64,000 nt of DNA, from assembly GCA_028823145.1 (NCBI GenBank), contig JAPKCA010000001.1:240-64239 (forward strand), read 5' to 3'. The notes beneath the pieces were generated by a model that did not search any database, was not told the origin of the DNA, and saw only the letters and a list, made by a program, of their open reading frames with translations. How positions within the stretch are numbered: position 1 is the stretch's first letter; each line of letters starts with the position of its first letter. The stretch comes from Flavobacteriales bacterium (GTDB lineage: Bacteria > Bacteroidota > Bacteroidia > Flavobacteriales_D > Sanyastnellaceae). Below are positions 1 to 62,158 of the stretch, piece by piece. A program made the position numbers and the translations under genes.

Positions 1-1
1 C

Positions 2-193
2 CTGTTTGAGGAATGCTCTGATTGTTCCGAAAACTGTGGTGAAGGAACTTACTATGAAGAGGATTCAGGAACTTGCTTACCGTTCGTTCCCGGATGTCCT
101 GCGGATGTTACCGGAGACGGGCTCGTCAATGTTTCTGATTTGCTTATACTACTGTCTCAGTTTGGTGATATTTGCGAGGAGGATCCCGAATGA
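2..193 (+). CDS. 3' end of a secreted protein, 5'-truncated by the window edge, ending in a dockerin-like Ca-binding repeat
   Basis: Frame 2 is open from the window edge to TGA at 191-193. It reads LFEECSDCSENCGEGTYYEEDSGTCLPFVPGCPADVTGDGLVNVSDLLILLSQFGDICEEDPE*. The DxxGDGxVNxxDLLxLLxxFG stretch fits a dockerin/EF-hand-type repeat. The listed ORF 6..197 is in another frame and has no recognisable features. Confidence 0.6.
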   Translation: MFEECSDCSENCGEGTYYEEDSGTCLPFVPGCPADVTGDGLVNVSDLLILLSQFGDICEEDPE

Positions 194-315
194 TTAATCC
201 TGACAACTAAAACGATGAAATCCCGGAATCCGACCGAGATATTCTCTGCGGATAGGCCCGCATCGAACGTGCAACCAAACCGGTAGAGGATGAGTTATAA
301 ATTCAACACCAAGAA

Positions 316-1092
316 ATGATGAAAAAATTATTATTCGTATTCGGTTTTGCGGCGATCTCTGGTCTCGGATTTGGTCAAGATCAGATCTGTCCAGGGGCCA
401 CTATTGAAATTTCAGCAGAAGGCATGTCGTTTTCTCCAGATGCTGCAATTGTGAATGTGGGATGGACCGTTGGATGGGTGAATTATGGCGGGAATCACGA
501 TGTAAATGGAATAACGAATTCTCTAACTCAACTTCCATTTGACAACCCTGAAGAATTTTACTTACCGACCGTGGAGGTTGACACTGTGCCCGTTTGTTTA
601 GGGACACACACTTTTACGATTCCTGGAGTTTATTATTACGATTGCACGACATACGGTCATGCTCAAGCTGGGATGGTCGGAAGTATTACAATCCACCTCC
701 CAGGATGCATGAATTCTCTGGCTTGCAATTATGATGATGCTGCAACAGAAGACAATGAAAGCTGTTTGTTCATCGGAGACGCTTGCGATGACGGTGACGA
801 AACCACACAGGATGACGTGATTCAAGAAGACTGCGGATGTGCTGGTTCACCCGCGTCTATTGTCGGTGAATTAGACGACATATCAGTCCTGATATTCCCT
901 AACCCTGTTGCATCAAATTTGACAATCACCTTAAGCTCAACCTCGACTCTTCAAGTTTTCAATTCTATTGGAAAATTAGTGGAGGAAACAGGACCCGTTT
1001 CAAGTTGGGTTTTCAATGTAAGTGACTGGAAAAAGGGGTTCTACACAGTGAAAACGCACGAGGGGAAAACGCATACGTTTATCGTTGAGTAG
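316..1092 (+). CDS. Secreted cupredoxin (plastocyanin/azurin-family type-1 copper protein) with a Cys-rich linker and a T9SS type-A C-terminal sorting domain
   Basis: Signal peptide MMKKLLFVFGFAAISGLGFGQ. Type-1 Cu ligand pattern: GNHDV ... YYYDCTTYGHAQAGMVG (C-x4-H-x4-M). The linker contains ACNY...SC. The C-terminus IFPNPVASNLTITL...FYTVKTHEGKTHTFIVE resembles a Por/T9SS CTD. Confidence 0.75.
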   Translation: MMKKLLFVFGFAAISGLGFGQDQICPGATIEISAEGMSFSPDAAIVNVGWTVGWVNYGGNHDVNGITNSLTQLPFDNPEEFYLPTVEVDTVPVCLGTHTFTIPGVYYYDCTTYGHAQAGMVGSITIHLPGCMNSLACNYDDAATEDNESCLFIGDACDDGDETTQDDVIQEDCGCAGSPASIVGELDDISVLIFPNPVASNLTITLSSTSTLQVFNSIGKLVEETGPVSSWVFNVSDWKKGFYTVKTHEGKTHTFIVE

Positions 1093-1180
1093 AACTTGAA
1101 TGGACAAGCAACTTGGAGCTACAGTCCTAGCTAAAACTATGAACTAGTGTTACGAGTTCTGAACGTTTGATAGATGATGC

Positions 1181-1243
1181 CAAATCCTCCTCAAAAAGTT
1201 TCGACTTCCCGCCTCTCTGCTCCACCAAAAATAAACCCACTCA
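1181..1243 (+). repeat. Intergenic repeat copy 1 (full form: left arm + core + right arm)
   Basis: Sequence is caaatcctcctcaaaaaGTTTCGACTTCCCGCCtctctgctccaccaaaaataaacccactca. The left arm plus core recur at 3474-3507. The core plus right arm recur at 2130-2175. Confidence 0.85.
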
Positions 1244-1265
1244 TTTGAGTGGGTTTTATTATTTT
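1233..1265 (+). terminator. Rho-independent terminator formed by the right arm of repeat copy 1
   Basis: Hairpin aaacccactca/tgagtgggttt followed by tattatttt. It lies downstream of the cupredoxin gene. Confidence 0.6.
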
Positions 1266-1272
1266 AGGGCCT

Positions 1273-2022
1273 ATGGAAAAAAGATGGAAAAGAATCTTGC
1301 TATTTTTAGTTATTGCAATAACTATATCTAATATTTTCAGGTTTGACGTTTTCGATCTTAAAGCCAATTTAGAAGAAATTCCAAGTTGGATTTACATACT
1401 AACTACTATTATTCTTGAAGGAAGTGGCGTATTAATTGGAGCTCTAATTGCTCTTTTTCTTCTAAAGAAAAAAAGAATAACCAAAATCTCTCTTTTTGGC
1501 ACATCAAAATCAAAAAGTCTAGTAATGATCATTATTCCGACAATCATCTTGACGATTATTGGAGTAGATAATGAATTTGAATTAAATCCTCATTTATATG
1601 GTTTTATATCAATCATAGGAACTTTATTGTACTGTGTAATGGAGGAATATGGATGGAGAGGTTACTTACAAGAAGAGTTAAAAACTATCAAACCATGGAA
1701 AAAATACCTCACTATTGGATTTTTATGGTACTTCTGGCACTTGACATTTTTAACAGAAGCTACAATAGGAGATAATCTATTCTTTTTAGCAATGATGATC
1801 TTTGGCAGCTGGGGTATTGGACAAGTAGTGGAATCTACAAAATCTATTTTGGCAAGTGCTTGTTTCCATTTAATTATACAAATTATGATGTTTAATGCAC
1901 TAATCAAAAATGGAATTGATATGACGGAAAAACTTATAATCTTAGTTGTTTCCGTTGTTCTTTGGTTTATGATTATTAAAAAATGGGAGAAAGAAGAACT
2001 TGTTAAAAAAGTTCGAAATTAG
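1273..2022 (+). CDS. CPBP family intramembrane glutamic endopeptidase (CAAX protease / Abi-like)
   Basis: Multi-pass membrane protein with EEYGWRGYLQ (EExxxR), WYFWHLTF and CFHLIIQ motifs. I moved the start to ATG 1273 because the listed GTG 1249 lies inside the terminator hairpin. The gene is very AT-rich: a hand count of 1261-1320 gives 28% GC. Confidence 0.75.
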   Translation: MEKRWKRILLFLVIAITISNIFRFDVFDLKANLEEIPSWIYILTTIILEGSGVLIGALIALFLLKKKRITKISLFGTSKSKSLVMIIIPTIILTIIGVDNEFELNPHLYGFISIIGTLLYCVMEEYGWRGYLQEELKTIKPWKKYLTIGFLWYFWHLTFLTEATIGDNLFFLAMMIFGSWGIGQVVESTKSILASACFHLIIQIMMFNALIKNGIDMTEKLIILVVSVVLWFMIIKKWEKEELVKKVRN

Positions 2023-2129
2023 GACCGAGAGGCCCACCGATTTTGTATTTAAATACAAATTTTAGATTTTTTAGTCTTGATTTTCAGGGTTCAATTTGTC
2101 TAAAATTTTCTGGAGATCGTTGTCGAAGT

Positions 2130-2175
2130 GTTTCGACTTCCCGCCTCTCTGCTCCACTAAAAATAAACCCACTCA
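2130..2175 (+). repeat. Intergenic repeat copy 2 (core + right arm only)
   Basis: GTTTCGACTTCCCGCCtctctgctccactaaaaataaacccactca matches copy 1 positions 1198-1243 with one mismatch. The left arm is unrelated, and the 3' hairpin arm is degenerate (gttgtgagaatttta). Confidence 0.85.
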
Positions 2176-2187
2176 GTTGTGAGAATT

Positions 2188-3381
2188 TTATTCTAAAATT
2201 ATTTTCTTCTCTACAGTATTGTCTTCGTAGATATAGAGTAGGGGGGTGTTGGGCTTAAGTGTTGTCTCTCTTCCCAACAGATCTGTAATTAGGACAAGTT
2301 GTTTTTCAAAAGCTGATTCACTAAACGTATCATTTATTGTAACTAGAGCACAAGCATCAGTGATTTCATTTTCTGAATTACAGCCCCCATCGTTTAATTC
2401 AATTGTAGATGGCCCAAAATCATTAGTGAGGTACGAGCAAATATTATCTAACGAGCAGTAATTCAGATTTCCACAATTCATTATTGTGAGGTGAGTGATG
2501 TTTTGTTCCTCTACATTTTCTAACCCATACAAGCTTGTTAGACTTTCGCAATTGTAAACTAAAATTTCCCCATTGAATTCAACTACGGAGAACAAGCCTT
2601 CAAGACTGTTTAGACTGGTATTACTCCAAAGGTTGATATTTGTTCCAATTGAGATTACTGATGAAAGTGCATCTAGGTTTTCTAATATGGGGTTTTTTCG
2701 TATGATAAGATTGCCACCAATAGCATCAATATTTTCGAGGCCTTCTAATGAATGCAATCCATCCATTTCATCGATATTAATATCACCACCCACAGTAGAA
2801 AAGTTAGAAAAGCCAGAAAGATTGGGCAAAGCATAATTTTCTTCAAGATTGATGCTTCCCGGTATTTCACTGATGCCTTCAAATCCGACAATCTCTATCA
2901 GTTCATTGCATTCGTAAATATTGATGCTTCCTACGTATTGCAAATTGTCTAGGCCATGGGTGCTCAATAAATCGTCACACTCATATAAGTTGAAACCCTC
3001 TCCAATATAAGATACATTGTTCAGACCTTGTAAGTTCACAAGAGTACCATGTGGTTCGTCAATAGTGATGTGACCACCAACGTAGGTAAGGTTCTCGAGA
3101 CCTACAAGAGAGCTCAGATCACATTCGTTACAAAAAAGGTTACCGCTAATTGAATCTAATTGAGCTAGTGCAGGAAAGCCTGCTAAATCTGAGGTACCTC
3201 CATATGGCAGTCGAAGACTATTTGGAAGACAGCTGCAGCTCGGGTAATCAATTACAAATTGAGCTATGTCCGAGCAATTGTAATAATCAGGATATCCAGA
3301 AGTCGGACAGCCCTGAGAGTAGACTTTTAATGTCGACAAGAATATTAGGCAAACCATAAATATTTTCGATGCTGATTTCAT
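2188..3381 (-). CDS. Secreted leucine-rich-repeat (BspA/LRR_5-like) protein with a T9SS C-terminal domain
   Basis: Signal peptide MKSASKIFMVCLIFLSTLKVYSQ. About 10 tandem ~22-aa units of the form L-x-GLENL-x-x-(I/V)GG-x-(I/L)-x-I-x-x-N-x-x-L. The C-terminus LVLITDLLGRETTLKPNTPLLYIYEDNTVEKKIILE resembles a T9SS CTD. Low GC: a hand count of 2581-2640 gives 38%. Confidence 0.7.
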   Translation of the reverse strand: MKSASKIFMVCLIFLSTLKVYSQGCPTSGYPDYYNCSDIAQFVIDYPSCSCLPNSLRLPYGGTSDLAGFPALAQLDSISGNLFCNECDLSSLVGLENLTYVGGHITIDEPHGTLVNLQGLNNVSYIGEGFNLYECDDLLSTHGLDNLQYVGSINIYECNELIEIVGFEGISEIPGSINLEENYALPNLSGFSNFSTVGGDINIDEMDGLHSLEGLENIDAIGGNLIIRKNPILENLDALSSVISIGTNINLWSNTSLNSLEGLFSVVEFNGEILVYNCESLTSLYGLENVEEQNITHLTIMNCGNLNYCSLDNICSYLTNDFGPSTIELNDGGCNSENEITDACALVTINDTFSESAFEKQLVLITDLLGRETTLKPNTPLLYIYEDNTVEKKIILE

Positions 3382-3473
3382 TCGTTGAATGTACCAATTT
3401 AAGATGAGTTGATTGCTTTAAACTCAGGGGTAAGATGCAATCGAAAATAATTCAGATAGTTGTCTAGTGTTAG

Positions 3474-3507
3474 TCAAATCCTCCTCAAAATGTTTCGACT
3501 TCCCGCC
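3474..3507 (+). repeat. Intergenic repeat copy 3 (left arm + core only)
   Basis: tcaaatcctcctcaaaatGTTTCGACTTCCCGCC matches copy 1 positions 1180-1213 with 2 mismatches over 34 nt (the first base, and the a/t just before the core). Sequence after the core diverges. The further-upstream 'ctagtgtta' is also shared with 1144-1152. Confidence 0.8.
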
Positions 3508-3560
3508 CCGTTTCTCCTATATCTCAATGTCAATGAGTGGCATACTTTATAAATACAATG

Positions 3561-3589
3561 AGAAGGCCCCGCATTTTGCTGGGCCTTCT
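3561..3589 (-). terminator. Strong stem-loop, probably the terminator of the 3708..4250 gene
   Basis: agaaggccc / gggccttct stem (9 bp) with an 11-nt loop. On the minus strand it is followed by a moderately T-rich stretch (cattgtatttat). Confidence 0.4.
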
Positions 3590-3707
3590 TCATAAATCGT
3601 GTTGTTGAATGTCAGTGTGTATTCCTGATCGCTGAACACGCGTTCTTACAGTGAATAATCCTGGACGCAGCGAGCAGCGAAGCCGCAGGGACGAATGCCA
3701 CGTGAAG

Positions 3708-4250
3708 TTATTGCCCGTAGTAACACGAACCATTCAGCTGCATCAGATAGGCCATGGTCCGGATCGGACGACCAGAGGAACTCATCCCCCCAACACGGTT
3801 GGTTGAAACTTCTCCAATCGTGCCATCCGGAAAATGCAAGAAGTACCGTGTGCCGTGTTGCATGGGTTGGTTTGTCGCATTGACCCCACGATCCATCAAC
3901 AAGACCTGGTGACTCATCTCTTCAGATTCTTCAACCAGGATGTGTCTGTGGTTTTCCGATGTCTGGTTTGGATCAGAGAGGTCGTTGACTCCAGCATGAA
4001 GCACAATTATTTGAGCGTCCGAAGGCAACTGGAGCATTTCAGACTCCTTGCCCAACCAGTCCAGTTCACTGACCAATGGTGACTCGCCGCCGCCACCTGT
4101 CCATGCCGAGCCGAAAATCCCAAGGAAAGGCAAAAGATCTGGCATTTCAATGGCCCGGTTTCCATCAAAATCCGGATTCCAACCCGGATGGTTTTGGGCC
4201 GTTGCACACAAGGCCAAGGTCACAGAAACAACCAGTAAACCGTATTTCAT
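3708..4250 (-). CDS. Small secreted hypothetical protein with an N-terminal dockerin-like half-site
   Basis: Signal peptide MKYGLLVVSVTLALCATAQ, then NPDFDGNRAIEMPDLLPFLGIFG. This parallels GDFNQDGARNLPDILLLLMHYG in the 45243..48980 protein. The rest is unrecognised. Confidence 0.5.
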   Translation of the reverse strand: MKYGLLVVSVTLALCATAQNHPGWNPDFDGNRAIEMPDLLPFLGIFGSAWTGGGGESPLVSELDWLGKESEMLQLPSDAQIIVLHAGVNDLSDPNQTSENHRHILVEESEEMSHQVLLMDRGVNATNQPMQHGTRYFLHFPDGTIGEVSTNRVGGMSSSGRPIRTMAYLMQLNGSCYYGQ

Positions 4251-4336
4251 GCTTTCACTCTTTGAATTGATTTCAAGATGAAAGCTAATTACGTGCTGGC
4301 TGGAAGCTCCTTTAAGCCGAGGAACTTACCCACAGT

Positions 4337-6199
4337 TTATTCCACAACCAGCACCCATGCAGCCCAAGCGGGAATCGTCAACTCACCGCCTGTATGACGC
4401 TCTCCTGTCAATGCATTCACCACATGTGCGCCCGCTGGAATCATTTCACTAAATCGGGTCAAATCCATCACTTCCGGCTCTTGAGACTTGTTGAGAATCA
4501 CCATTATTTTTTGATCGTCGTTGAAACGGAAATACACGTAACTCCCCTTTTCTGGGACATAATGCATGAGTCGACCGTCGTGAATGGCTGAAGCCGTTTT
4601 CCTCCAATTCATCAGGCTTCGAAATTCAGATTGAAAAGCTTGGGATTCATCAGATAACCCACGACCTGATCGAACATCAACCGCATCTCCATCCCAACCT
4701 CCCGGAAGATCACTCCGGATGTTGCCGTGGCTATCATCGCCCGTATTGGACATCAAGATTTCCGTGCCGTAATAGAATTGCGGCGTCCCGCGCATGGTGG
4801 CAAAAAAATAGGTGGCCAATCGAGTCAAGTTCACATCGTCTCCGAGTTGTGTGTGGATCCGACTCATATCGTGGTTGTCTGGGAAAATGATATGAGCTGA
4901 TGCATCGGGATAGAGGTAGTCATTGCCCAACATTTCATACATCTGCACCCAATCCGAATGCCAAGACTCCTCTTCGGTCAGGGATGTGATGAGCGCGTCG
5001 TGCAATGGGAAATCCAGCAACCCTGGCAAGCACGATGTGTAACCATTGGCGTTGGATTGACCCGCCTGCCAATAGGCCAAAACCGATGGATTCAGGCTCC
5101 ACTCTTCGCCGCACATGTTGAACTCGGGATAGGCATCCATGACCGCACAACTCCATCGGCTCATAAAAGCCGCATCGGAATATGGATAGGTGTCCATTCG
5201 AATGCCACCAATCCCGAGGTACTCGATCCACCACAGCGTATTTTGAATGAGGTAATCGGCCAACAGTGGTTGCCGCTGGTTGAGGTCCGGCATAGTTTCT
5301 ACAAACCAACCATCCGCGAAGCCTTTGACATCGGATTGGGCTGCATATGGATCGCGGAGGGATGTCCGGCGATGCGTTGTTGGGATGAATGTGTTGTCGT
5401 TGTTGACCCAATCCCTGGTTGGCAAATCCTTCATCCAAGGATGCTCGGACCCGCAATGGTTCATGATCATGTCCATGATGACTTTCATGCCCTTATCCCG
5501 GGCACTTTGCACTAATTGACGGTAGTCTTCGTTGCTTCCAAAGCGCGGGTCGACCCGGTAATAGTCCGTAGTAGAATAGCCATGATACGACCATTGAGGC
5601 TGGTTGTTTTCCAACACCGGATTCAACCAAATAGCGGTGAATCCCATGGAGTCCAAGTAGTCCAAATGCTGCTCAATCCCCACCAAGTCACCACCATGCC
5701 GGCCAAAATCAATGGTTCGGTTGGGGCCTTCCAACATGTCCGGATGAGCATCGTTGGACGAGTCTCCATTGGCAAATCGATCCGGCGTGATGAGGCAAAC
5801 CACATCCGCATTGGTATATCCGGTGATTTCAAAATCCGGGGACCTCGCTTCCAACCTATACGGTGTGCGACCAACGGTTCGACCCTTGGGGTCTTTCCAT
5901 TGAATAACAAACGTTCCAGGTTGGGTCTCTTCGTCAATATGGAGGTACAGAAACACATAATTTTCACTTTCCACGGTCACGGCACGATCCAACCGGATTC
6001 CGGGAAAATCGACATAGGGCGTCAATTGAACCAATCGGTCCCCGTGGATCATCAGTTGCAATTCGGAATGGTGCATCCCGACCCACCAATTGGGGGGTTC
6101 TACGGTGTCAATCCACGATTGGGATTGCCCGGTCATCGCAAAAACCGAAACCAAGATGAATACTCCACTTAATTTTCTCCACCGTAATCTCCAATTCAT
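4337..6199 (-). CDS. Glycoside hydrolase family 13 alpha-amylase / cyclomaltodextrinase-like enzyme, secreted
   Basis: The four GH13 regions are present: VIMDMIMNH, GIGGIRMDTYPY, CGEEWS, FPDNHDMSR. The start is set at MNWRLRWRKLSGVFILVSVFAMTGQSQ (ATG 6199), which gives a signal peptide. Confidence 0.85.
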   Translation of the reverse strand: MNWRLRWRKLSGVFILVSVFAMTGQSQSWIDTVEPPNWWVGMHHSELQLMIHGDRLVQLTPYVDFPGIRLDRAVTVESENYVFLYLHIDEETQPGTFVIQWKDPKGRTVGRTPYRLEARSPDFEITGYTNADVVCLITPDRFANGDSSNDAHPDMLEGPNRTIDFGRHGGDLVGIEQHLDYLDSMGFTAIWLNPVLENNQPQWSYHGYSTTDYYRVDPRFGSNEDYRQLVQSARDKGMKVIMDMIMNHCGSEHPWMKDLPTRDWVNNDNTFIPTTHRRTSLRDPYAAQSDVKGFADGWFVETMPDLNQRQPLLADYLIQNTLWWIEYLGIGGIRMDTYPYSDAAFMSRWSCAVMDAYPEFNMCGEEWSLNPSVLAYWQAGQSNANGYTSCLPGLLDFPLHDALITSLTEEESWHSDWVQMYEMLGNDYLYPDASAHIIFPDNHDMSRIHTQLGDDVNLTRLATYFFATMRGTPQFYYGTEILMSNTGDDSHGNIRSDLPGGWDGDAVDVRSGRGLSDESQAFQSEFRSLMNWRKTASAIHDGRLMHYVPEKGSYVYFRFNDDQKIMVILNKSQEPEVMDLTRFSEMIPAGAHVVNALTGERHTGGELTIPAWAAWVLVVE

Positions 6200-6261: not shown

Positions 6262-7356
6262 ATGAACATGGAATTGCTGCAATCACTTGAGACAGGAAAC
6301 ATCAGCACCTGGATGGTCTTGGGAGTGCTCATCACGTTTAGCATCATTGAAATCGGATTTGGATTTCTGAAGCAATCACAGCGATCAAAAGACGACTGGA
6401 CGCTCGAAATCATCAGCTTTATCACCTTGTCTTTGCTGGTCAAACCATTGGTTTTGGGGATAACCCTTTTTCTTTGCGCCGCGGTGATTCCGGACACCGA
6501 ACAAGCCCTGGCCTGGATTCCATTTGGCTGGGCATGCCTGATGTATTTGTTGACCGATGATTTGATTCAATACTTCTATCACCGTGGTGCCCACGCGCAC
6601 CCTTTTTTCTGGAAGTTGCATCGGGCCCACCACCAAGCAGAAGAAATGGGCTTTTTCGTTTCGTACCGAAATGCCGCCTTGTATTACCTCCTCATGCCAA
6701 ATGTCTGGTGGTTGGGACTCGTCGTTTTTTGGGGCGGTGCAGGACCTGCCGCACTCGGATTGGTCATCAAGCAAGCCATCATCATCAGTTCACATAGCCG
6801 CGTAACGTGGGATGCGCCTTTTTATCGTCACAAACTGTTGCGCCCTTTGATTCGGCTGTTGGAACGCATTTTCATCACCCCTGCATTCCATCATGCCCAC
6901 CACGGCCAATCCAAAGCAGATGGAGTCAGCAACCCCAACGGGAATTTCGGCAACCTCTTTTCAATTTGGGACCAACTATTCGGGTCTGCTCATTTCCCAC
7001 GATCCTTCCCAGTTGCCTACGGTTTGCCGCAGGCAACCCATGATCGCTGGCACGCAGCCTACCTCTATCCCCTGGCCGCTTCTTCGGACCCAAAAAGTGA
7101 GTTGTCGCGCGGGTTTAAAAAACATAACACCACTTCCTCCAAGCCATCGAGGCAACAAGTGGAAGCGGGAAAAACGTACCTATGGTGCAGCTGTGGCCTC
7201 AGCCAAAACCAACCTTTTTGCGATGGATCTCATCATGGAACCGGCCATCAACCGGTGGTTTATGTGGCTCAAAAAGATGCAAATCTTTCCTTTTGTCATT
7301 GCAAACACACGGGGAAACCACCGTTTTGCGACAATTCCCATTTGACGGCTAAATAG
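6262..7356 (+). CDS. Fatty acid hydroxylase / sterol desaturase-family membrane di-iron enzyme fused to a C-terminal double CDGSH iron-sulfur domain
   Basis: His boxes YHRGAHAH, HRAHH and FHHAHHG sit in a multi-TM N-terminal region. The C-terminus carries CSCGLSQNQPFCDGSH and CHCKHTGKPPFCDNSH, which fit the CDGSH [2Fe-2S] signature. Confidence 0.8.
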   Translation: MNMELLQSLETGNISTWMVLGVLITFSIIEIGFGFLKQSQRSKDDWTLEIISFITLSLLVKPLVLGITLFLCAAVIPDTEQALAWIPFGWACLMYLLTDDLIQYFYHRGAHAHPFFWKLHRAHHQAEEMGFFVSYRNAALYYLLMPNVWWLGLVVFWGGAGPAALGLVIKQAIIISSHSRVTWDAPFYRHKLLRPLIRLLERIFITPAFHHAHHGQSKADGVSNPNGNFGNLFSIWDQLFGSAHFPRSFPVAYGLPQATHDRWHAAYLYPLAASSDPKSELSRGFKKHNTTSSKPSRQQVEAGKTYLWCSCGLSQNQPFCDGSHHGTGHQPVVYVAQKDANLSFCHCKHTGKPPFCDNSHLTAK

Positions 7357-7362
7357 TCTAGG

Positions 7363-8790
7363 TCACAACCACTTCAACACCGCATTGATCAAGCGTGATT
7401 TTGAGCGGGTATAAGGTGGCATCAAAAGCCCCCCTACTCCGGCCCAGCGTTGCTCATAGACTCCTCTAAAATGCGTGAATTCCCGAAAGCCAAACTCCCC
7501 ATTTCCCGAACCTACTCCACTGGAGCCTAAACCGCCAAACGGCAAGTTGGTACTGGTAACATGAATGATACTGTTGTTGATGCTCACACCTCCAGATGGC
7601 ACCGCAGACATGACCTCACGGATCAATGATTTTTTCTTGCTGTAGAGGTACAAAGCCAATGGGGTTTCGCGTTCCCCAATGAAATCGATGGCTTCCTGCA
7701 AATGACCCCAGGTGATGACGGGCAACACGGGGCCAAATATTTCTTCATGAAGTATTCGAGATCCTGCTGGCACGTCAACCAAGATGGTGGGTTCAACATG
7801 GCAACCAACTGTGTCCACTTCGCCACCTCGGATAACGGTTGCTCCGCGTTCTTTGGCATCGATGATGAGCCCTTCAATGCGCTGGGCATGTCGAGTATGA
7901 ACGATGCGTTGATAATCTCGTGCTTTGGATTCTGCGTCAGGGTACAAAGAATCCATGGCAAGTTGAAGTTGGTCTACAAAAGCATCCCGGACGCTCTCAT
8001 GCACCAAGACGTAGTCCGGCGCCACACAAATTTGTCCAGCATTGGAGAGCTTGGACCATGCGATGCGCTTTGCCGCGGATTTCAAGTTTGCCGATGCATC
8101 CAGGATCACGGGAGATTTCCCTCCTAGCTCTAGCGTCACACTGCATGGCAGTTTTGCAGCTGCGGCCATGACCACTCGCCCCACTTGCGGTGAACCGGTG
8201 AAGAACATGTGATTGAAAGGCAACGTCAACAAATGCGTCGTCGTTTCCACGCCACCTTGCACCACGACCACCTCGCGAGGATCAAATACCGCGGCGACAA
8301 TTTCAGCCACGACTTTCGCTGTGTGCCCCGTCAATTCTGAAGGTTTCAGCAGAGCCGTACAACCTGCAGCAATGGCAGCAACCAACGGACGAAAAACCAG
8401 CTGCATGGGATAATTCCATGGAGCAATAATCAAAGCCACTCCTTTTCCTTCAGGCCTGATCCATGAAGAAGACCCGACCAAAGCCAAACCACTAGGAACT
8501 TTTCGCGGGCGCATCCAATTCCTCAGTGACCGCTTGACCGCTTTGATTTCACTTTTCAGCACAAATATTTCTGTGAGGTCAACCTCCTCTGGGGGTTTCT
8601 GAAAATCCTCCCACATGGCCTTTTTCAGATCATCCCTTCTCCGCCAAACTTCAGCGTTTAAGGCATTCAACCGCTTGATCCGCTGCTTGGCAGATAATTG
8701 GCGTTGTTGGGGAGCTCGCTCCACCAATCCTTGAAACAAGGCATTCATGGATTCAACAGCTGGAGCGACAGGAAGGATGGTGCTAGTCAT
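7363..8790 (-). CDS. NAD(P)-dependent aldehyde dehydrogenase (ALDH3/coniferyl-aldehyde type)
   Basis: Motifs TLELGGKSP, NAGQICVAPDY (catalytic Cys) and EEIFGPVLPV. The start is trimmed to MTSTILPV (ATG 8790), which avoids overlap with the divergent gene. Confidence 0.85.
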   Translation of the reverse strand: MTSTILPVAPAVESMNALFQGLVERAPQQRQLSAKQRIKRLNALNAEVWRRRDDLKKAMWEDFQKPPEEVDLTEIFVLKSEIKAVKRSLRNWMRPRKVPSGLALVGSSSWIRPEGKGVALIIAPWNYPMQLVFRPLVAAIAAGCTALLKPSELTGHTAKVVAEIVAAVFDPREVVVVQGGVETTTHLLTLPFNHMFFTGSPQVGRVVMAAAAKLPCSVTLELGGKSPVILDASANLKSAAKRIAWSKLSNAGQICVAPDYVLVHESVRDAFVDQLQLAMDSLYPDAESKARDYQRIVHTRHAQRIEGLIIDAKERGATVIRGGEVDTVGCHVEPTILVDVPAGSRILHEEIFGPVLPVITWGHLQEAIDFIGERETPLALYLYSKKKSLIREVMSAVPSGGVSINNSIIHVTSTNLPFGGLGSSGVGSGNGEFGFREFTHFRGVYEQRWAGVGGLLMPPYTRSKSRLINAVLKWL

Positions 8791-8861
8791 GAACAAAGCT
8801 TTGTAGCAATCTAACAACAGAATGATGCAGATTCCTCTTGGAAACGTAGGAACTTGGTCAA

Positions 8862-9470
8862 ATGAATTCACCGTGGGATGAACGCTACCGGAATCAAGAG
8901 GGATTGTACGGCGCTGAGCCCAATGCATTCTTTGCGGAAGCCTTGCGTGATTGCGTCGGACATTCCATGCTCCTCCCGTGCGATGGTGAAGGGCGCAACG
9001 CTGTTTTTGCGGCCAAGCAAGGTTGGAATGTATGGTCTTTTGATGCCAGTCAAGTCGGTGTAACCACTTCTATTCGGTGGGCGGAAGAAGCTGGAGTGAC
9101 CATCCATTCGGTCCAAGCCGACGCCTTCGAATACACTCCGCCCAATGGTCCCGTAGATGTTGTTGGATTGTTCTACGCTCACATGCCCGAATCCATGCGC
9201 AACGCTTTTCATCGACGTGCCTTGTCATGGGTCAAGCCTGGAGGCCTGATCATCTTGGAAGGATTTCACACGGATCAGTTGCAGTTTTCGTCTGGAGGCC
9301 CCAAAGATCTGGCAATGCTCTTGACTCCTGAAATTTTAGAATCAGACTTCGACGAACTGACCGTTTTGCAAAATCAGTCCTTGCGTGTAAAATTGAATGA
9401 AGGACCTTTGCACCAAGGTGCAGCTGCTGTTTGTCGATTCATCGGTCAGAAACCCCAATCAACCCCTTGA
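8862..9470 (+). CDS. Class I SAM-dependent methyltransferase
   Basis: Motif-I-like LLPCDGEGRNAVFAAKQGWNVWSFD. The size (~200 aa) and layout resemble TehB/TPMT-type small methyltransferases. Confidence 0.65.
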   Translation: MNSPWDERYRNQEGLYGAEPNAFFAEALRDCVGHSMLLPCDGEGRNAVFAAKQGWNVWSFDASQVGVTTSIRWAEEAGVTIHSVQADAFEYTPPNGPVDVVGLFYAHMPESMRNAFHRRALSWVKPGGLIILEGFHTDQLQFSSGGPKDLAMLLTPEILESDFDELTVLQNQSLRVKLNEGPLHQGAAAVCRFIGQKPQSTP

Positions 9471-9474
9471 CAAG

Positions 9475-10896
9475 ATGAGATACCCTGCCGTACTATTGAT
9501 TCCCATTGCTGTGGTTGGAATATCATTTTTCATAGGTTCAGATACGCAATCGGACCAAACCGAAGAACCCGGTGCCGTCCTGTATGCGGAATTTTGCCAA
9601 GATTGCCATGGCACAAACGGGCGTGATTTTGTGGGCCGCACATGGAAACTTGGAAGCCGAAAGAAGGACCTCCTGCGCGTGATGGAAGAGGGCTATCCTT
9701 TGCTTGGCATGCCCGGTTATGGGGCGACCATGGGGCCGGAAGAATTGGATTCGCTGGCTGAATATGTGTTGCAACAAGCGCAAAAGGAAAAGCGGTTCTA
9801 CCCAACTGCCCCGAGGACTGAGGAAACTTCCGATCTCACAATCCGAGCCGATGTCATCATGGACGGCCTCGAAACTCCCTGGGGAATGGACCTGACCGAT
9901 CAAGGCGGACTATTGGTGACCGAGCGAGAAGGCCGCCTGTGGCACTTTCAAGAGGGCGTTCAACGAGTGGTTAAAGGATTGCCCGACGACATCATCGTCA
10001 AGGGACAAGGAGGGCTCATGGATGTGGCGTTTTGGACCGATAACAAAACACTTGAATCGTGGGTTTACTTAAGCTACAGCAAGCTTCACCCTGACAACGA
10101 TCGACTCTCCGCTACCGGATTGATTCGTGGCCGATGGGAAGTGGCCGACAGCACGTTCCGATTGGCTGATGTGGAGACGCTCTTCATCGCCACTCCCTAT
10201 GAGAAAACGCATCATCATTACGGAAGTCGAATCGCTTTTGGACCGGATGGGATGCTCTATCTGACATGCGGTGAACGCGGCCATCGGGATACCCATCCCC
10301 AATCGTTGGAATCACGGCCTGGAAAAGTGCACCGCCTGCACCCCGATGGGACAATTCCTGCAGACAATCCCTTTTTGAACATCCCTGGAGCGGAGCCTTC
10401 TATTTGGACCTGGGGGCACCGCAATCCACAGGGGATGTTTGTCCATCCCACGACGGGAGAAATATGGACGCATGAGCATGGCCCAAAAGGCGGAGATGAA
10501 ATCAACATCCTCCGAAAAGGCGCCAACTACGGTTGGCCCAGCATCACTTTTGGGAGGAATTACAGTGGAACCATTATCACCCGCGATACAGCCATGACAG
10601 GGATGGAACAGCCCTTGTATTATTGGCTCCCTTCCATCGGAGCATGCGGCTTGGATATCATTGATGGAGGGCAATGGCCGAAAGCTTGGCAAGGAAACCT
10701 ATTGGCCGGTTCGTTGAGTTTTGAATACTTGGAACGATTGGTCCTCGACCAAGATCAAAAGGTGATCCATCGAGAAAATTTGCTCGAAGACATTGGGCGT
10801 GTGAGGGATATTTGCACGGGACCAAATGGCGATGTCTTTGTGGCCATTGAAGGAGCAGGAACGGTCGTTCGATTGATCCCACTTCCAAAATTATGA
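9475..10896 (+). CDS. Cytochrome c domain fused to a PQQ-dependent sugar (glucose/sorbosone) dehydrogenase beta-propeller
   Basis: Signal/TM MRYPAVLLIPIAVVGISFFIG and haem motif CQDCHG. These are followed by HHYGSRIAFGPDG, WGHRNPQG and HEHGPKGGDEIN...GANYGWP, which are typical of soluble PQQ dehydrogenases. Confidence 0.8.
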   Translation: MRYPAVLLIPIAVVGISFFIGSDTQSDQTEEPGAVLYAEFCQDCHGTNGRDFVGRTWKLGSRKKDLLRVMEEGYPLLGMPGYGATMGPEELDSLAEYVLQQAQKEKRFYPTAPRTEETSDLTIRADVIMDGLETPWGMDLTDQGGLLVTEREGRLWHFQEGVQRVVKGLPDDIIVKGQGGLMDVAFWTDNKTLESWVYLSYSKLHPDNDRLSATGLIRGRWEVADSTFRLADVETLFIATPYEKTHHHYGSRIAFGPDGMLYLTCGERGHRDTHPQSLESRPGKVHRLHPDGTIPADNPFLNIPGAEPSIWTWGHRNPQGMFVHPTTGEIWTHEHGPKGGDEINILRKGANYGWPSITFGRNYSGTIITRDTAMTGMEQPLYYWLPSIGACGLDIIDGGQWPKAWQGNLLAGSLSFEYLERLVLDQDQKVIHRENLLEDIGRVRDICTGPNGDVFVAIEGAGTVVRLIPLPKL

Positions 10897-10906
10897 TCGC
10901 TTGAAA

Positions 10907-11893
10907 ATGGTCCCGCGATTTCTCGTTCTATGCTCCCTGGTTGGGTTGTTGGGGGTTTCACTCCAGGCCACATCACAGACGGTGACCAAAACCCTGACGG
11001 CCGCGGAAGAGAACGCCCTCAGGATGGCCGAATCTCCTGCTCCCATTGTGGACACCGTGCTCTGGAAAAGCGAAGGTGTTGTCAATGTGCAATTCAGCCA
11101 AGTGCATCTGAAAAATTGGGCGGCTGGAGGCCAAAGCAACCTGTCTTTGATGACAAAATTCGATCACAACTGGAATCTCGATCGAGAACGAATCGGCTGG
11201 GACACGGAGTTGCATTTGGCCTTCGGAATGTTGCACCGACCGGAAGACAATGTTTTCATCAAAACTGACGATCGCTTCGAATGGTCTTCGAAATGGGGGT
11301 ACCGCGCAACAGAGACCGCCTTCATGACAATCATGGCTCAATTCCGATCACAATTCGCTCCAGGATACAGCATGATGGACGGCATTCCGGATAGAGACAA
11401 TCTTCGCTCCAATTGGATGGCACCAGGCTACGGCGTCTTCGCCGCGGGGATTGATTACAAAAACTCAAAAGGCGGATTCACCCTCTTTTTCGCCCCGTTT
11501 ACCTACAAAGGCACATGGGTGCTGGATGATTCATTGTCTCAGGCTGGCGCCTTTGGCGTTGAACCCGGGGAGCGATTTCGCTATGAATTGGGTGGATATA
11601 TAAAGTTGGGCTGGGTGACTCCCGTCGTGGAAAATGTCACCTACGCCTTGCGCCTCGATTTGTTTTCCAATTTTGTCGCAAATCCTGAAAACGTGGATTT
11701 GTTCACGGACCACGTGCTTTCGCTCAAAATCAACTCCTACCTCACCACCACCATTAGTGCGACATTCATCTATGATGATGATGTTATTTTAACCAAAGAG
11801 CCGATTGAAGTGGAAGGCGAGATGATTCCACAACAGGGACCCGGAGTCCAATTTAAGGAAGTGATCTCCGTAGGACTTTCGCTAAAATTTTAA
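10907..11893 (+). CDS. Outer-membrane beta-barrel protein, DUF3078-like
   Basis: Signal peptide MVPRFLVLCSLVGLLGVSLQA. It has the LKNWAAGGQSNLSL motif I associate with DUF3078, alternating beta-strand pattern, and a terminal F. ATG 10907 is preferred over TTG 10901. Confidence 0.6.
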   Translation: MVPRFLVLCSLVGLLGVSLQATSQTVTKTLTAAEENALRMAESPAPIVDTVLWKSEGVVNVQFSQVHLKNWAAGGQSNLSLMTKFDHNWNLDRERIGWDTELHLAFGMLHRPEDNVFIKTDDRFEWSSKWGYRATETAFMTIMAQFRSQFAPGYSMMDGIPDRDNLRSNWMAPGYGVFAAGIDYKNSKGGFTLFFAPFTYKGTWVLDDSLSQAGAFGVEPGERFRYELGGYIKLGWVTPVVENVTYALRLDLFSNFVANPENVDLFTDHVLSLKINSYLTTTISATFIYDDDVILTKEPIEVEGEMIPQQGPGVQFKEVISVGLSLKF

Positions 11894-56034: not shown

Positions 56035-56090
56035 TGGGAATGAAGGAAAGGAAGCTAATTTGCGGCAAATTTCGACGAAACCTTATCACG

Positions 56091-57023: not shown

Positions 57024-57027
57024 AAGC

Positions 57028-59880: not shown

Positions 59881-59890
59881 TCGTCATATC

Positions 59891-62092: not shown

Positions 62093-62113
62093 AGGCGCAA
62101 AAACTTGAATCTG

Positions 62114-62147: not shown

Positions 62148-62158
62148 TGCGCCAAATA

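What the first reader, a model, noticed from the sequence alone, without database searches (positions are those of the whole stretch)
1100..3600. Low-GC two-gene islet bounded and split by three mosaic copies of one repeat (L-core-R / x-core-R / L-core-y)
Three intergenic sequences share the core GTTTCGACTTCCCGCC.
- Copy 1 (1181-1243) has a left arm (caaatcctcctcaaaaa) and a right arm (tctctgctccaccaaaaataaacccactca).
- Copy 2 (2130-2175) keeps only core + right arm.
- Copy 3 (3474-3507) keeps only left arm + core.

This is the arm-swapping pattern expected of attL/attR/attB-type junctions after site-specific recombination, or of serial cassette insertion at one site. The repeats delimit two cassettes: a CPBP/Abi protease gene and a T9SS LRR protein gene.

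Both cassettes are much more AT-rich than the flanks. Hand counts give 28% GC at 1261-1320 and 38% at 2581-2640, against 57% at 4381-4440. No integrase or transposase is present in the window, so the mobilising function, if any, acts in trans or has been lost.
Basis: seen in the sequence. Interest (0 to 1): 0.65.

Follow-up and report, generated by a model that had tools for sequence, protein, structure and literature searches.

The report
Repeat-bounded gene cassettes from marine Flavobacteriales
The three repeats are real and mark the edges of two imported single-gene modules; they belong to a widespread, apparently undescribed family of tRNA-end-like junction repeats that separate swappable gene cassettes in arrays downstream of tRNA and tmRNA genes in uncultured marine Flavobacteriales.

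Summary
In detail: the 16-nt core occurs exactly three times, all on the + strand, inside the only low-GC stretch of the window (35.5% vs 49.6%). The arm-swapping reading is wrong in detail. All three are full 48-nt copies (1178-1225, 2110-2157, 3472-3519) of one repeat in three subtypes. The shared "right arm" is a tRNA/tmRNA-type terminator hairpin that starts the next module. A fourth, related repeat (2003-2037) ends the CPBP module. About 170 type-I copies occur in ~120 metagenome and MAG loci, so this is not a single att site. Copies within a locus are always co-oriented (50/50 adjacent pairs). The related type-II repeat forms arrays of 5-11 units per 16-32 kb lying downstream of, and co-oriented with, ssrA or tRNA-Val. 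Unit ends copy the anchor's 3' end (GCTCCAC, GCCCAC). Cassettes recur edge-to-edge in different arrays with unrelated neighbours (9 of 13 pairs). The window's CPBP cassette sits behind a genuine ssrA in another contig. Best reading: site-specific cassette accretion at t(m)RNA-3'-end-like sites, with an unidentified recombinase acting in trans. The window holds a small imported fragment of such an array.

The parts
316..1092 (+). Left neighbour: cupredoxin-domain protein with a T9SS C-terminal sorting domain. GC is 40-47%, so it may itself be part of the flexible region.
   Evidence: Pfam Copper-bind plus Por_Secre_tail; composition.
1178..1225 (+). Type-I junction unit, copy 1 (L-type; ends CTCCAC at 1220-1225).
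   Evidence: nhmmer 52 bits; core exact.
1226..2037 (+). CPBP cassette (812 nt): terminator hairpin, CPBP gene and a type-II unit.
   Evidence: 99.5% identical in L095/L096 with different flanks. 85.8% edge-to-edge match to L229 cassette 3, with different neighbours.
1233..1256 (.). Bidirectional terminator hairpin AAACCCACTCAtttGAGTGGGTTT. The same type of hairpin follows genuine ssrA and tRNA-Ala genes elsewhere.
   Evidence: Terminator scan; L095 ssrA flank; L141 tRNA-Ala flank.
1273..2022 (+). CPBP / Rce1-like intramembrane protease gene (249 aa, GC 29.8%).
   Evidence: Pfam PF02517. Homologues are patchily distributed across phyla.
2003..2037 (+). Type-II junction unit (AAAAAAGTTCGAAATTAGGACCGAGAGGCCCAC), the right end of the CPBP cassette.
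   Evidence: nhmmer 46.5 bits with the type-II profile; five such units in L229; 107 genome stretches.
2038..2109 (+). Linker (CGATTTTGTATTTAAATACAAATTTTAG...) that in at least 9 other loci directly follows an L-type unit and leads into an x-type unit. The CPBP cassette therefore interrupts a pre-existing L/x unit dimer.
   Evidence: Right-flank class (c) in L019, L127, L147, L217, L227, L205, L188, L137, L166.
2110..2157 (+). Type-I junction unit, copy 2 (x-type subfamily; ends CTCCAC at 2152-2157).
   Evidence: nhmmer 50.7 bits. The same subtype, with the same ~70-nt left extension, occurs in L011, L027, L137, L108 and L154.
2158..2192 (.). Decayed copy of the same terminator hairpin (TAAAAATAAACCCACTCAGTTGTGAGAATTTTATT), the start of the LRR cassette. 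It overlaps the LRR stop codon.
   Evidence: 84% match to 1226-1260; weak terminator call on the minus strand.
2188..3381 (-). LRR / receptor-L-domain secreted protein with a T9SS-type C-terminus (397 aa, GC 37.5%).
   Evidence: Pfam; clusters with the T9SS cargo family found next to units in 41 of 122 loci.
3472..3519 (+). Type-I junction unit, copy 3 (L-type left half, CCGYTTCTCC-variant right half, mutated end CTCCTA). It marks the right edge of the low-GC islet.
   Evidence: nhmmer 47.4 bits; variant subtype seen in many copies; GC rises immediately to its right.
3708..4250 (-). First backbone gene (180 aa, no Pfam family). It lies in the conserved MT-aldh-amylase-p180 synteny block of the ~50-58% GC relatives.

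Best explanation
SHOWN.
- The three sequences are copies of a 48-nt junction repeat ('type-I unit', consensus CTTCAAATCCTCCTCAAAATGTTTCGACTTCCCGCCTCTCTGCTCCAC).
- The unit is native to low-GC uncultured marine Flavobacteriales.
- It resembles the T-loop-to-acceptor 3' end of tRNA-Ala and tmRNA, and its conservation stops sharply at CTCCAC.
- A sister repeat ('type-II unit', ...GTTCGAACTTAGGACCGAGAGGCCCAC) resembles the 3' end of tRNA-Val.
- In the home genomes, type-II units, and occasionally both types together, sit in co-oriented arrays.
- Where an anchor gene is visible, the array lies downstream of, and co-oriented with, ssrA, tRNA-Ala or tRNA-Val.
- Each interval between units is a cassette: a terminator hairpin, one or a few genes (mostly T9SS-sorted or lipoprotein-type secreted proteins), and the next unit.
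- Identical cassettes turn up in different arrays and genomes with unrelated neighbours, and homology ends at the ...CCAC| junction.

INFERRED.
- Cassettes are gained and moved by site-specific recombination whose crossover lies at or near the CCAC end shared by units and by the t(m)RNA 3' ends. This would be serial accretion at a t(m)RNA-like att site.
- The recombinase acts in trans and has not been identified.

THE WINDOW.
- A ~50% GC Flavobacteriales genome carries a small imported piece of such an array: unit 1, then the CPBP cassette ending in a type-II unit, then a linker plus unit 2, then the LRR cassette, then unit 3, then the backbone.
- The CPBP cassette has been inserted exactly between the two halves of a pre-existing L-type/x-type unit dimer.
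For: Family and boundaries:
- 11 of the 28 genome loci found by the core scan, and more than 120 metagenome stretches, carry the unit. That gives about 170 copies in about 120 loci, with conservation ending at CTCCAC.

Co-orientation:
- 36/36 multi-copy type-I loci are co-oriented: 50/50 adjacent pairs, and 37/37 pairs more than 1 kb apart (p = 1.5e-11).
- 24/24 multi-copy type-II loci are co-oriented.
- 5/5 loci that hold both unit types have them in the same orientation.

Clustering (type II):
- Contig coordinates show arrays: 10 units in 400-432 kb of a 1.06-Mb contig; clusters at 8-32, 440-464 and 688-696 kb of a 1.39-Mb contig.

Anchors:
- ssrA lies upstream of and co-oriented with units in L011/L144, and points into the 440-464 kb array (its last unit is ~2 kb from the ssrA 3' end).
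- tRNA-Ala does so in L022 and L141; tRNA-Val does so in two genomes.
- Unit ends equal the anchors' 3' ends, and the flanks that follow genuine tRNA-Ala, tRNA-Val and ssrA genes also follow units directly after CCAC.

Modularity:
- Among 54 cassettes there are 13 homologous pairs. Nine are edge-to-edge at 86-100% identity. In the 12 pairs whose neighbours could be assessed, no neighbouring cassette is homologous on either side.
- About 30% of homology breaks between related type-I contigs fall at the unit edges.

CPBP cassette:
- It is 99.5% identical in L095, directly after a genuine tmRNA 3' end (Rfam 66 bits, E = 7e-24), and also occurs in L096 and L229. All share the same edges and have different flanks.

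Import into the window:
- Unit-bearing loci have median GC 37.6% and the arrays 30-31%, against a window backbone of 49.6%.
- Syntenic relatives lack the genes and the units.
Against: - No recombinase was found in the 64-kb window, among 140 representative ORFs near type-I units, or inside or beside six large arrays. A crude motif screen found no Y1/HUH transposase.
- No strain-level occupied-versus-empty pair was found.
- Type-I units also lie next to housekeeping genes such as ruvB, a release factor and fumarase, and their clustering was not measured as it was for type II.
- The type-II unit lies exactly 24 nt upstream of the start codon of many cassette genes, and ~85% of genes (estimated by eye) share one orientation relative to it. 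The unit may therefore be conserved for expression and not, or not only, for recombination.
- The window's own anchor gene is not visible, and its relatives have no tRNA next to p180.
- Much of the evidence comes from MAG and metagenome assemblies, where repeats can break or mis-join contigs.
Confidence: 0.6

Rival explanations
1. The units are cis-regulatory expression modules: a conserved promoter or 5'-leader next to the previous gene's terminator, belonging to a regulon of secreted or T9SS cargo genes. Under this reading, arrays are simply clusters of such genes, and cassette sharing reflects homologous recombination or gene conversion between the conserved modules.
For: - The type-II unit sits exactly 24 nt upstream of the ATG of many cassette genes, and ~85% of genes (estimated by eye) share one orientation relative to it.
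- Hairpin plus T-run terminators follow CTCCAC more often than in controls (21% vs 3% by strict criteria).
- T9SS cargo genes adjoin type-I units in 41 of 122 loci.
- A gene-conversion-like patch is confined to copy 3 in L099.
Against: - Units keep their orientation when the adjacent gene is reversed (L229; Z_MB123 around 24.2-24.9 kb).
- Type-I units show no preferred geometry relative to genes (11/10/9/7).
- Units mimic t(m)RNA 3' ends, and arrays start at those genes.
- Housekeeping thrBC is also bounded by units.
- The junction with genuine ssrA or tRNA shares only 6-7 identical bases, which is too little for RecA-dependent exchange.
- This reading is compatible with, and does not exclude, a recombination role.
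Confidence: 0.2
2. The units are passive dispersed repeats with no dedicated enzyme. They serve only as portable homology for RecA-mediated cassette replacement after DNA uptake, and as breakpoints for deletions and duplications.
For: - 48 nt of near-identity is enough for homologous exchange.
- Left-arm variants travel with left flanks, whereas the same right flank occurs with different unit variants. This fits crossovers inside the invariant centre.
- About 30% of homology breaks fall at the unit edges.
- There is a conversion-like patch in L099.
Against: - It does not explain the 100% co-orientation.
- It does not explain the t(m)RNA anchors or the match of unit ends to anchor 3' ends.
- It does not explain insertion of the CPBP cassette between CTCCAC and the linker, with only CCAC shared.
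Confidence: 0.2
3. The type-I unit is a multicopy small-RNA gene: its own promoter, a 48-nt C/U-rich unstructured RNA, and a locus-specific intrinsic terminator.
For: - The right boundary is sharp, and it is followed by hairpin/T-run structures.
- TTTG boxes are enriched near -12 and -34 relative to the unit start.
- The unit's strand is the G-rich (leading-type) strand in 24 of 32 loci (p = 0.007).
- The location is always intergenic.
Against: - Only 17% of copies have an A..TTTG box, and 2 of 130 have TA..TTTG.
- There is no Rfam match.
- The type-II sister unit overlaps a coding 3' end in the CPBP cassette.
- An sRNA gene does not explain the t(m)RNA-flank junctions, edge-to-edge cassette sharing or array anchoring.
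Confidence: 0.1
4. Cassettes move as single-stranded DNA through an HUH/Y1 (IS200/IS605- or RAYT-like) enzyme. Insertion would occur 3' of a CCAC target, which every cassette regenerates at its own right end, producing co-oriented tandem arrays.
For: - The same tetranucleotide lies left of each cassette and at its right end, with no target duplication.
- A hairpin lies ~10 nt after the junction.
- The units contain small palindromes, AAGTTCGAACTT and GTCGAAgtgtTTCGAC.
- There is a weak link between unit orientation and GC3 skew.
- No large recombinase is present nearby.
Against: - No Y1-type ORF was found in about 2 Mb of loci, although this was only a crude motif screen.
- The L-type unit lacks a convincing hairpin.
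- Two arrays on one contig share an orientation and a third is opposite, which does not discriminate between mechanisms.
Confidence: 0.08
5. Assembly artefact: the low-GC islet was joined to a 50% GC contig by a chimeric join at a repeat.
For: Five of the six strain-level contigs that extend past p180 end inside or just short of copy 3, a graph branch point.
Against: - An independent assembly (L099) reads from the amylase gene through p180 and copy 3 into the LRR gene at 99.8% identity.
- L104 reproduces the LRR gene at 100% identity in the same sample series.
Confidence: 0.03

Closest known systems
Tandem ssrA-specific genomic islands of Dehalococcoides (ssrA-GIs; McMurdie et al. 2011, PMC3146451)
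   Same: - Multiple islands lie in tandem downstream of ssrA.
- Each is bounded by a direct repeat of the ssrA 3' end.
- Some islands lack integration genes and were proposed to be cis-mobilizable.
- The integrase ORF reads across the junction repeat on the complementary strand. The type-I unit shows a comparable complementary-strand ORF trace.
   Different: [quoted passage not shown]
- Here cassettes have a median of ~1.4 kb, usually hold one gene, number up to 11 per array, and none carries a recombinase.
- The repeats are diverged mimics of the t(m)RNA end, not exact 20-bp copies.
- Anchors include tRNA-Val and tRNA-Ala as well as ssrA.
CIMEs and site-specific accretion at tRNA or other target genes (Pavlovic 2004 and Bellanger 2011, as reviewed in PMC5704250)
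   Same: Elements that have lost their integration genes but keep attL/attR sites accumulate in tandem by integration of newcomers into a resident att site.
   Different: - CIME tandems hold a few large decayed ICEs or IMEs.
- Here there are long arrays of gene-sized cassettes, with no resident ICE or IME seen.
Integron cassette arrays and CALINs (established knowledge, not tested against a reference tool here)
   Same: - Co-oriented arrays of mostly single-gene, recombinase-free cassettes are separated by a conserved repeat.
- The same cassette is found in different arrays with precise boundaries.
- Sedentary arrays have highly similar repeats (compare the Vibrio VCRs).
   Different: - No IntI, attI or Pc was seen.
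- The repeat is not an attC-type imperfect palindrome with R''/R' boxes.
- The repeat lies on the 5' side of most cassette genes, and each cassette brings its own terminator.
- Arrays are anchored at tRNA/tmRNA genes.
Repeats of partial tRNA 3' ends inside the genomic islands of marine Prochlorococcus (Coleman et al. 2006, from memory)
   Same: Fragments of a tRNA 3' end are repeated within hypervariable islands next to the tRNA gene and are read as scars of repeated integration.
   Different: - There are only a few repeats per island, and the islands are many kilobases long.
- There is no gene-by-gene cassette structure and no second repeat family.
Mosaic intergenic repeats (REP/BIME, pneumococcal BOX elements; established knowledge)
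   Same: They are short, intergenic, multicopy and modular in appearance, and they cause assembly breaks.
   Different: - REP/BIME units are palindromic, scattered and not co-oriented.
- The units here are non-palindromic, co-oriented within every multi-copy locus, tRNA-like, and (for type II) clustered.

Membership tests
Integron / CALIN | Co-oriented array of promoterless cassettes separated by recombination sites | tested here: met
   Co-orientation was 50/50, 24/24 and 5/5. Arrays hold 5-11 units. Cassettes are shared edge-to-edge. Whether the cassettes are promoterless was not tested.
Integron / CALIN | attC sites: imperfect palindromes with R''/L''-L'/R' boxes (RYYYAAC ... GTTRRRY) that fold as single-strand hairpins | tested here: not met
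   The 48-nt and 33-nt units are not palindromic and carry no GTTRRRY/RYYYAAC pair (sequences). Only a separate short terminator hairpin follows the junction. No attC covariance model was run.
Integron / CALIN | IntI tyrosine recombinase with attI next to the array (absent in CALINs) | tested here: not met
   No recombinase was found in the window, in 140 neighbouring ORFs, or at or inside six arrays.
tRNA/tmRNA-targeted integrative islands in tandem (accretion, CIME arrays, ssrA-GIs) | An intact tRNA or tmRNA gene at one end of the array, co-oriented with the repeats | tested here: met
   Met in related loci: ssrA (L011/L144, L095, L352), tRNA-Ala (L022, L141) and tRNA-Val (L301, L317). It is not visible in the window itself.
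tRNA/tmRNA-targeted integrative islands in tandem (accretion, CIME arrays, ssrA-GIs) | Direct repeats that reproduce the 3' end of the target gene | tested here: inconclusive
   The last 6-7 nt are identical (GCTCCAC, GCCCAC) and a T-loop-like TTCGA block is shared, but the repeats have insertions relative to the genes. The local alignment to ssrA scored above shuffles (p about 0.012).
tRNA/tmRNA-targeted integrative islands in tandem (accretion, CIME arrays, ssrA-GIs) | The native downstream flank of the target gene is displaced to the far junction | tested here: met
   Units are followed directly by flanks that elsewhere follow genuine tRNA-Ala, tRNA-Val or ssrA genes. By motif search, 7 and 8 of 138 unique type-I right flanks are of the tRNA-Ala-flank and ssrA-terminator types. 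L258, L247 and L252 show this for type II.
tRNA/tmRNA-targeted integrative islands in tandem (accretion, CIME arrays, ssrA-GIs) | An integrase encoded by at least some elements of the array | tested here: not met
   None was detected. Whole genomes could not be scanned.
REP/BIME-type or MITE-type repeats | A palindromic unit or terminal inverted repeats, with target-site duplication and scattered, orientation-free distribution | tested here: not met
   No TIR or TSD is visible at the unit edges. Copies are strictly co-oriented, and type-II copies are clustered.
Described RNA families (Rfam 15) | A match reaching a family's gathering score | tested here: not met
   No hit near a gathering score over 1-6000. 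The weak leader-family matches (Leu_leader 29 bits vs gathering score 50, E = 0.0059; Phe_leader E = 0.064) fall on the terminator hairpin at ~1229-1299. ARAGORN found no tRNA or tmRNA in the window.
Protein-coding gene or gene remnant (minus-strand ORF VEQRGGKSKHFEEDL...) | A full-length parent protein, a consistent start codon, and substitutions biased to synonymous sites | tested here: inconclusive
   - All 61 database hits are ORFs of 24-70 aa, with no parent protein.
- 76% of copies begin with GTG, ATG or TTG.
- Synonymous fractions are only 19-22%, and tail differences are spread evenly over codon positions.

The most novel reading that the evidence does not exclude
Marine Flavobacteriales (the Cryomorphaceae BACL11, Schleiferiaceae and Crocinitomicaceae-type lineages) possess an integron-like gene-cassette system of a new type. 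A trans-acting, still unknown recombinase captures and reshuffles gene-sized cassettes, mostly T9SS-secreted or surface proteins. Each cassette carries its own terminator and a pseudo-tRNA-3'-end site. Arrays grow from the 3' ends of tRNA-Val, tRNA-Ala and tmRNA genes. Fragments of such arrays, like the one in this window, spread horizontally into other lineages.
Probability: 0.4. Interest if true: 0.85.

Novelty: new variant of a known kind. Interest (0 to 1): 0.7.

Why it matters
Cassette-capture systems are textbook for Proteobacteria (integrons). For the abundant marine Bacteroidota, I found no comparable gene-by-gene shuffling platform in the literature I searched.

The arrays concentrate T9SS cargo and surface proteins, the genes that set polysaccharide and particle use, adhesion and phage or grazer exposure in these bacteria. 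A dedicated cassette mechanism would therefore explain much of their strain-level surface diversity.

It would also give a concrete sequence handle for mining flexible genes from metagenomes: two short repeat families with sharp junctions.

For annotation, two practical points follow:
- The units break assemblies.
- They spawn dozens of spurious 'hypothetical protein' clusters.

Tried and rejected
- **tmRNA/tRNA gene in the window.** ARAGORN and Rfam found none. The CCACCA resemblance turned out to be meaningful only through comparison with other loci.
- **Full-length parent of the minus-strand ORF.** A profile search of 5.8 billion proteins returned only 24-70-aa ORFs. Six-frame synonymous/non-synonymous counts and codon-position tests were not convincing.
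- **attP on phages.** The single viral-contig hit is a chance match in a high-GC phage gene.
- **Strain-level empty site.** Contigs with the exact flanking proteins are 98.7-100% identical to the window and mostly break inside or just short of copy 3. A systematic search among the metagenome contigs found no occupied/empty pair.
- **Replication-strand polarity as the sole cause of co-orientation.** Raw GC skew showed nothing. Strand-balanced GC3 skew gave 24 of 32 loci. However, contig coordinates show type-II copies clustered in arrays and not spread along replichores.
- **sRNA promoter.** Only a minority of copies have a Bacteroidetes-type -7 box.
- **Recombinase hunts.** Motif screens plus Pfam on 50 window ORFs, 140 pooled neighbours and 20 array ORFs all came back negative.
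- **tRNA next to p180 in relatives.** None was found.
- **Literature.** Three searches returned no description of these repeats or arrays.

Full report
**1. Checking the observation**

The 16-nt core GTTTCGACTTCCCGCC occurs exactly three times in the window (1198, 2130, 3492), always on the + strand. The chance expectation is 0.06.

The region 1100-3600 has 35.5% GC (CPBP gene 29.8%, LRR gene 37.5%), against 49.6% for the rest of the window. It is the only stretch below 42% in 64 kb.

- an Rce1/CPBP-type membrane protease at 1273-2022 (+);
- an LRR / receptor-L-domain protein at 2188-3381 (-), whose C-terminus groups with T9SS-sorted proteins.

None of the 50 window ORFs is an integrase or transposase.

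**2. The 'arms' re-read**

Alignment with copies from elsewhere shows a conserved unit of 48 nt: CT(T/C)CAAATCCTCCTCAAAATGTTTCGACTTCCCGCCTCTCTGCTCCAC. Its right end, at CTCCAC, is sharp. All three window copies are full-length:

| Copy | Coordinates | Subtype |
|---|---|---|
| 1 | 1178-1225 | L-type |
| 2 | 2110-2157 | x-type: left half diverged, with a conserved ~70-nt upstream extension also seen in L011, L027, L137, L108 and L154 |
| 3 | 3472-3519 | L-type left half with the common CCGYTTCTCC variant of the right half |

These assignments rest.

It is a terminator hairpin (stem 1233-1256). A decayed copy of it follows copy 2.

**3. Not a tRNA gene, but tRNA-like**

ARAGORN and Rfam find no tRNA, tmRNA or known RNA family here. 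Comparison with other loci shows the connection:
- Two short metagenome contigs carry the CPBP segment at 99.5% identity but with different flanks.
- In L095 the segment follows a genuine tmRNA 3' end (Rfam tmRNA, 66 bits, E = 7e-24, model positions 268-374). The sequence reads ...GGTTCGACTCCCCCCGGCTCCAC|CAAAAATAAACCCACTCATTTGAGTGGG, with the same terminator as in the window.
- The unit therefore occupies the place of the ssrA 3' end. It also resembles that end, sharing TTCGAyT, CCCGCC and GCTCCAC in the same order.

**4. A large repeat family**

A scan of 185,579 species genomes found the core in 11 loci of seven Flavobacteriales, Cryomorphaceae or Bacteroidetes MAGs. The other 17 hits are chance matches.

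A profile search then gave about 170 copies in about 120 loci.

The copies do not behave like REP elements, however:
- In 36 of 36 multi-copy loci, every copy has the same orientation. That is 50/50 adjacent pairs and 37/37 pairs more than 1 kb apart (p = 1.5e-11).
- Orientation shows no relation to the strand of the neighbouring genes (0.50).
- Right flanks and left flanks each fall into recurrent classes that occur in different combinations.
- About 30% of homology breaks between related contigs fall within a few bases of the unit edges, although the unit occupies only about 1% of the sequence.
- By motif search, 7 of 138 unique right flanks match the sequence that follows a genuine tRNA-Ala in L022, and 8 are the ssrA/tRNA-type terminator.

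**5. Alternatives examined**

*Coding.* On the minus strand the unit reads (V/M)E(Q/K)RGGKSKHFEEDL.... Several differences between subtypes are synonymous, and 76% of copies begin with GTG, ATG or TTG. Against that:
- A profile search of 5.8 billion proteins found only 61 ORFs of 24-70 aa and no parent gene.
- Frame-wise and codon-position tests are unconvincing.

I treat the signal as at most a relic. It is worth noting that the integrase gene of the Dehalococcoides ssrA islands always reads across the junction repeat on the complementary strand.

*Small RNA.* Hairpin/T-run structures follow CTCCAC more often than in controls (21% vs 3%), and TTTG boxes are enriched upstream. However, only 17% of copies have an A..TTTG box.

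*Replication polarity.* The unit's strand is the G-rich one in 24 of 32 loci by strand-balanced GC3 skew (p = 0.007). The window has the opposite sign.

*Phage attP.* No viral contig carries the unit.

*Recombinase in cis.* None was found among 140 representative neighbouring ORFs. Only T9SS sorting domains recur among them.

**6. The CPBP cassette and a second repeat family**

CPBP homologues are patchily distributed across phyla. The closest one (84%) lies in L229, a 31% GC Flavobacteriales single-cell genome.

L229 contains five co-oriented copies of a related unit, AAAAAGTTCGAACTTAGGACCG(AG/TA)AGG(C/T)CCAC, each followed by the same kind of hairpin. These units bound five different cassettes:
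- two lipoprotein genes on the minus strand;
- CPBP on the plus strand;
- a three-gene block with T9SS cargo.

Homology between the window and L229 runs from 3 nt after CTCCAC to the CCAC at 2037 and nowhere else.

The window's CPBP module (1226-2037) therefore ends in its own type-II unit (2003-2037, 46.5 bits).

The sequence that follows it (CGATTTTGTATTTAAATACA..., 2038-2109) directly follows an L-type unit in at least nine other loci and leads into an x-type unit. In the window, then, the CPBP cassette interrupts a pre-existing L/x unit dimer exactly at the CTCCAC| junction.

**7. Arrays and anchors**

The type-II unit occurs in 107 genome stretches across many marine Flavobacteriales MAGs and single-cell genomes. 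All 24 multi-copy loci are co-oriented.

Contig coordinates show that the copies are clustered:

| Contig | Region | Units |
|---|---|---|
| Z_MB123 (1.06 Mb) | 400-432 kb | 10 |
| AC_MB403 (1.39 Mb) | 8-32 kb | 8 |
| AC_MB403 (1.39 Mb) | 440-464 kb | 11 |
| AC_MB403 (1.39 Mb) | 688-696 kb | 2 (exact matches only) |
| BACL11 contig 3 | 104-126 kb | 9 |
| FRAM18_bin188 contig 3 | 336-352 kb | 6 |

The arrays have 30-31% GC. Cassettes range from 0.5 to 7.9 kb (median about 1.4 kb) and mostly hold one gene, typically T9SS-sorted or a lipoprotein. About 85% of the genes (estimated by eye) point opposite to the unit, often with the unit exactly 24 nt upstream of the ATG. Units keep their orientation when a gene is reversed.

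The anchor genes are as follows:
- The tmRNA gene of AC_MB403 points straight into the 440-464 kb array; its last unit lies about 2 kb from the ssrA 3' end.
- A tRNA-Val next to folC lies upstream of, and co-oriented with, arrays in two genomes.
- ssrA (L011/L144) and tRNA-Ala (L022, L141) do the same for type-I units.

The tRNA-Val ends ...TTGCCCAC|CAAAGCGGAATCC.... Type-II units end ...AGGCCCAC|CA, and several are followed by the same AAGCGGAATCC terminator. Each unit family thus mimics the 3' end of an anchor gene, and the anchor behaves as 'unit 0' of the array.

Mixed arrays exist, and in them the two unit types are co-oriented in 5 of 5 loci.

**8. Cassette modularity**

Among 54 cassettes there are 13 homologous pairs. 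Nine are homologous from junction to junction at 86-100% identity. In the 12 pairs whose neighbours could be assessed, no neighbouring cassette is homologous on either side.

Two examples are AC_MB403 8-32k#3 versus Z_MB123#7 (98.5% over 1513/1512 nt) and the window's CPBP cassette versus L229#3. Three of the edge-to-edge pairs are 100% matches between contigs of one MAG and may reflect assembly redundancy.

The threonine genes thrBC are bounded by units in BACL11 and sit first after tRNA-Val in FRAM18_bin188.

No recombinase is present at the ends of, or inside, six arrays, and a crude motif screen found no Y1/HUH enzyme.

**9. Interpretation**

*Shown:*
- a repeat family with sharp junctions;
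- strict co-orientation;
- array organisation;
- t(m)RNA anchors with matching 3' ends;
- discrete cassettes shared between arrays;
- one such cassette (CPBP) present in the window, behind a genuine ssrA, and inside another array.

*Inferred:* cassettes are acquired and moved by site-specific recombination at or near the CCAC end, through serial accretion at t(m)RNA-3'-end-like sites, by an enzyme encoded elsewhere in the genome.

The main competing readings are:
- The units are conserved chiefly as expression modules.
- They act only as portable homology for RecA.

Neither accounts for the anchors, the match to the t(m)RNA ends, or the 6-7-nt junction identity with genuine ssrA and tRNA genes. 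A dual role as recombination site and promoter is quite possible.

For the window itself, the islet is a small piece of such an array in a genome of higher GC. Its syntenic relatives (MT-aldh-amylase-p180) have neither the genes nor the units. An independent assembly confirms the p180-unit-LRR junction.

**10. Comparison with known systems and novelty**

The closest described system is the tandem ssrA-specific genomic islands of Dehalococcoides, together with the CIME/accretion concept. The present arrays differ in four ways:
- gene-sized cassettes;
- up to 11 units per array;
- no integration module;
- several kinds of anchor gene and two repeat families that mimic them.

In organisation they resemble integron arrays, but they fail the attC and IntI criteria.

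I classify this as a new variant of a known kind. The literature I searched holds no description of these repeats or arrays.

The main uncertainty is the unidentified recombinase, together with the absence of a direct occupied/empty or circle-junction observation.

Noticed in passing
window 3472-3519 vs L099 (Logan SRR22098096 contig): A strain-level contig is 99.8% identical to the window over 2.7 kb. All of its differences (3 mismatches, 2 gaps) sit inside the core of copy 3, where the minus strand reads GGCGGGAAATCCGATAAGTTTGAGG instead of GGCGGGAAGTCGAAACATTTTGAGG. This is the 'KSDKF' unit subtype seen elsewhere, so it looks like a gene-conversion patch from another copy.
   Followed up: partly
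window 6262-7356 (+): A fatty-acid-hydroxylase / CDGSH zinc-finger fusion gene sits between the amylase and aldehyde dehydrogenase genes. In the relatives where both genes were seen, they are adjacent (about 45 nt apart), so this looks like a lineage-specific insertion in the backbone.
   Followed up: no
window 56040-63682: A second group of T9SS cargo genes lies here (LTD + Por_Secre_tail, PLD + Por_Secre_tail, a CHU_C protein, plus a TonB-dependent receptor). It has normal GC and no junction units, so not all T9SS cargo in this genome is cassette-borne.
   Followed up: partly
protein database hits P0001-P0061: The minus strand of the type-I unit has been called as at least 61 distinct 'hypothetical protein' clusters of 24-70 aa in public metagenome annotations. 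Their N-termini are often just translated terminator hairpins (MGLFLVE...). They are probably annotation artefacts.
   Followed up: partly
stitched BACL11 contig-3 region 8533-10977 (L331 533-2977) and L317 3661-5884: The housekeeping threonine genes thrB-thrC are bounded by type-II units in one genome and are the first block after tRNA-Val in another. Essential genes can therefore sit inside these arrays.
   Followed up: no
window 2038-2109: The linker between the CPBP cassette and copy 2 contains a perfect 18-nt palindrome (TTTGTATTTAAATACAAA). The linker is conserved together with the x-type unit in several genomes. Its role (terminator, or protein-binding site) is unknown.
   Followed up: no
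L155 3805-4506 (+): One IS3-family-like transposase fragment (judged by eye from the sequence) lies about 3 kb from a type-I unit. It is the only transposase-like ORF noticed in about 620 kb of unit-bearing loci.
   Followed up: no
L230-L245: Homologues of the CPBP protein at 48-74% identity occur in Cyclobacteriaceae, Chitinophagales, Saprospiraceae, Prolixibacteraceae, Aminicenantes, Cloacimonadota, Neomarinimicrobiota and a Rheinheimera MAG, without the junction units. The gene itself is widely exchanged.
   Followed up: partly
type-I loci: In its home genomes, the type-I unit lies on the strand with positive strand-balanced GC3 skew in 24 of 32 loci (p = 0.007). The window has the opposite sign. 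It is unclear whether this reflects array orientation relative to replication, as is known for chromosomal integrons.
   Followed up: partly
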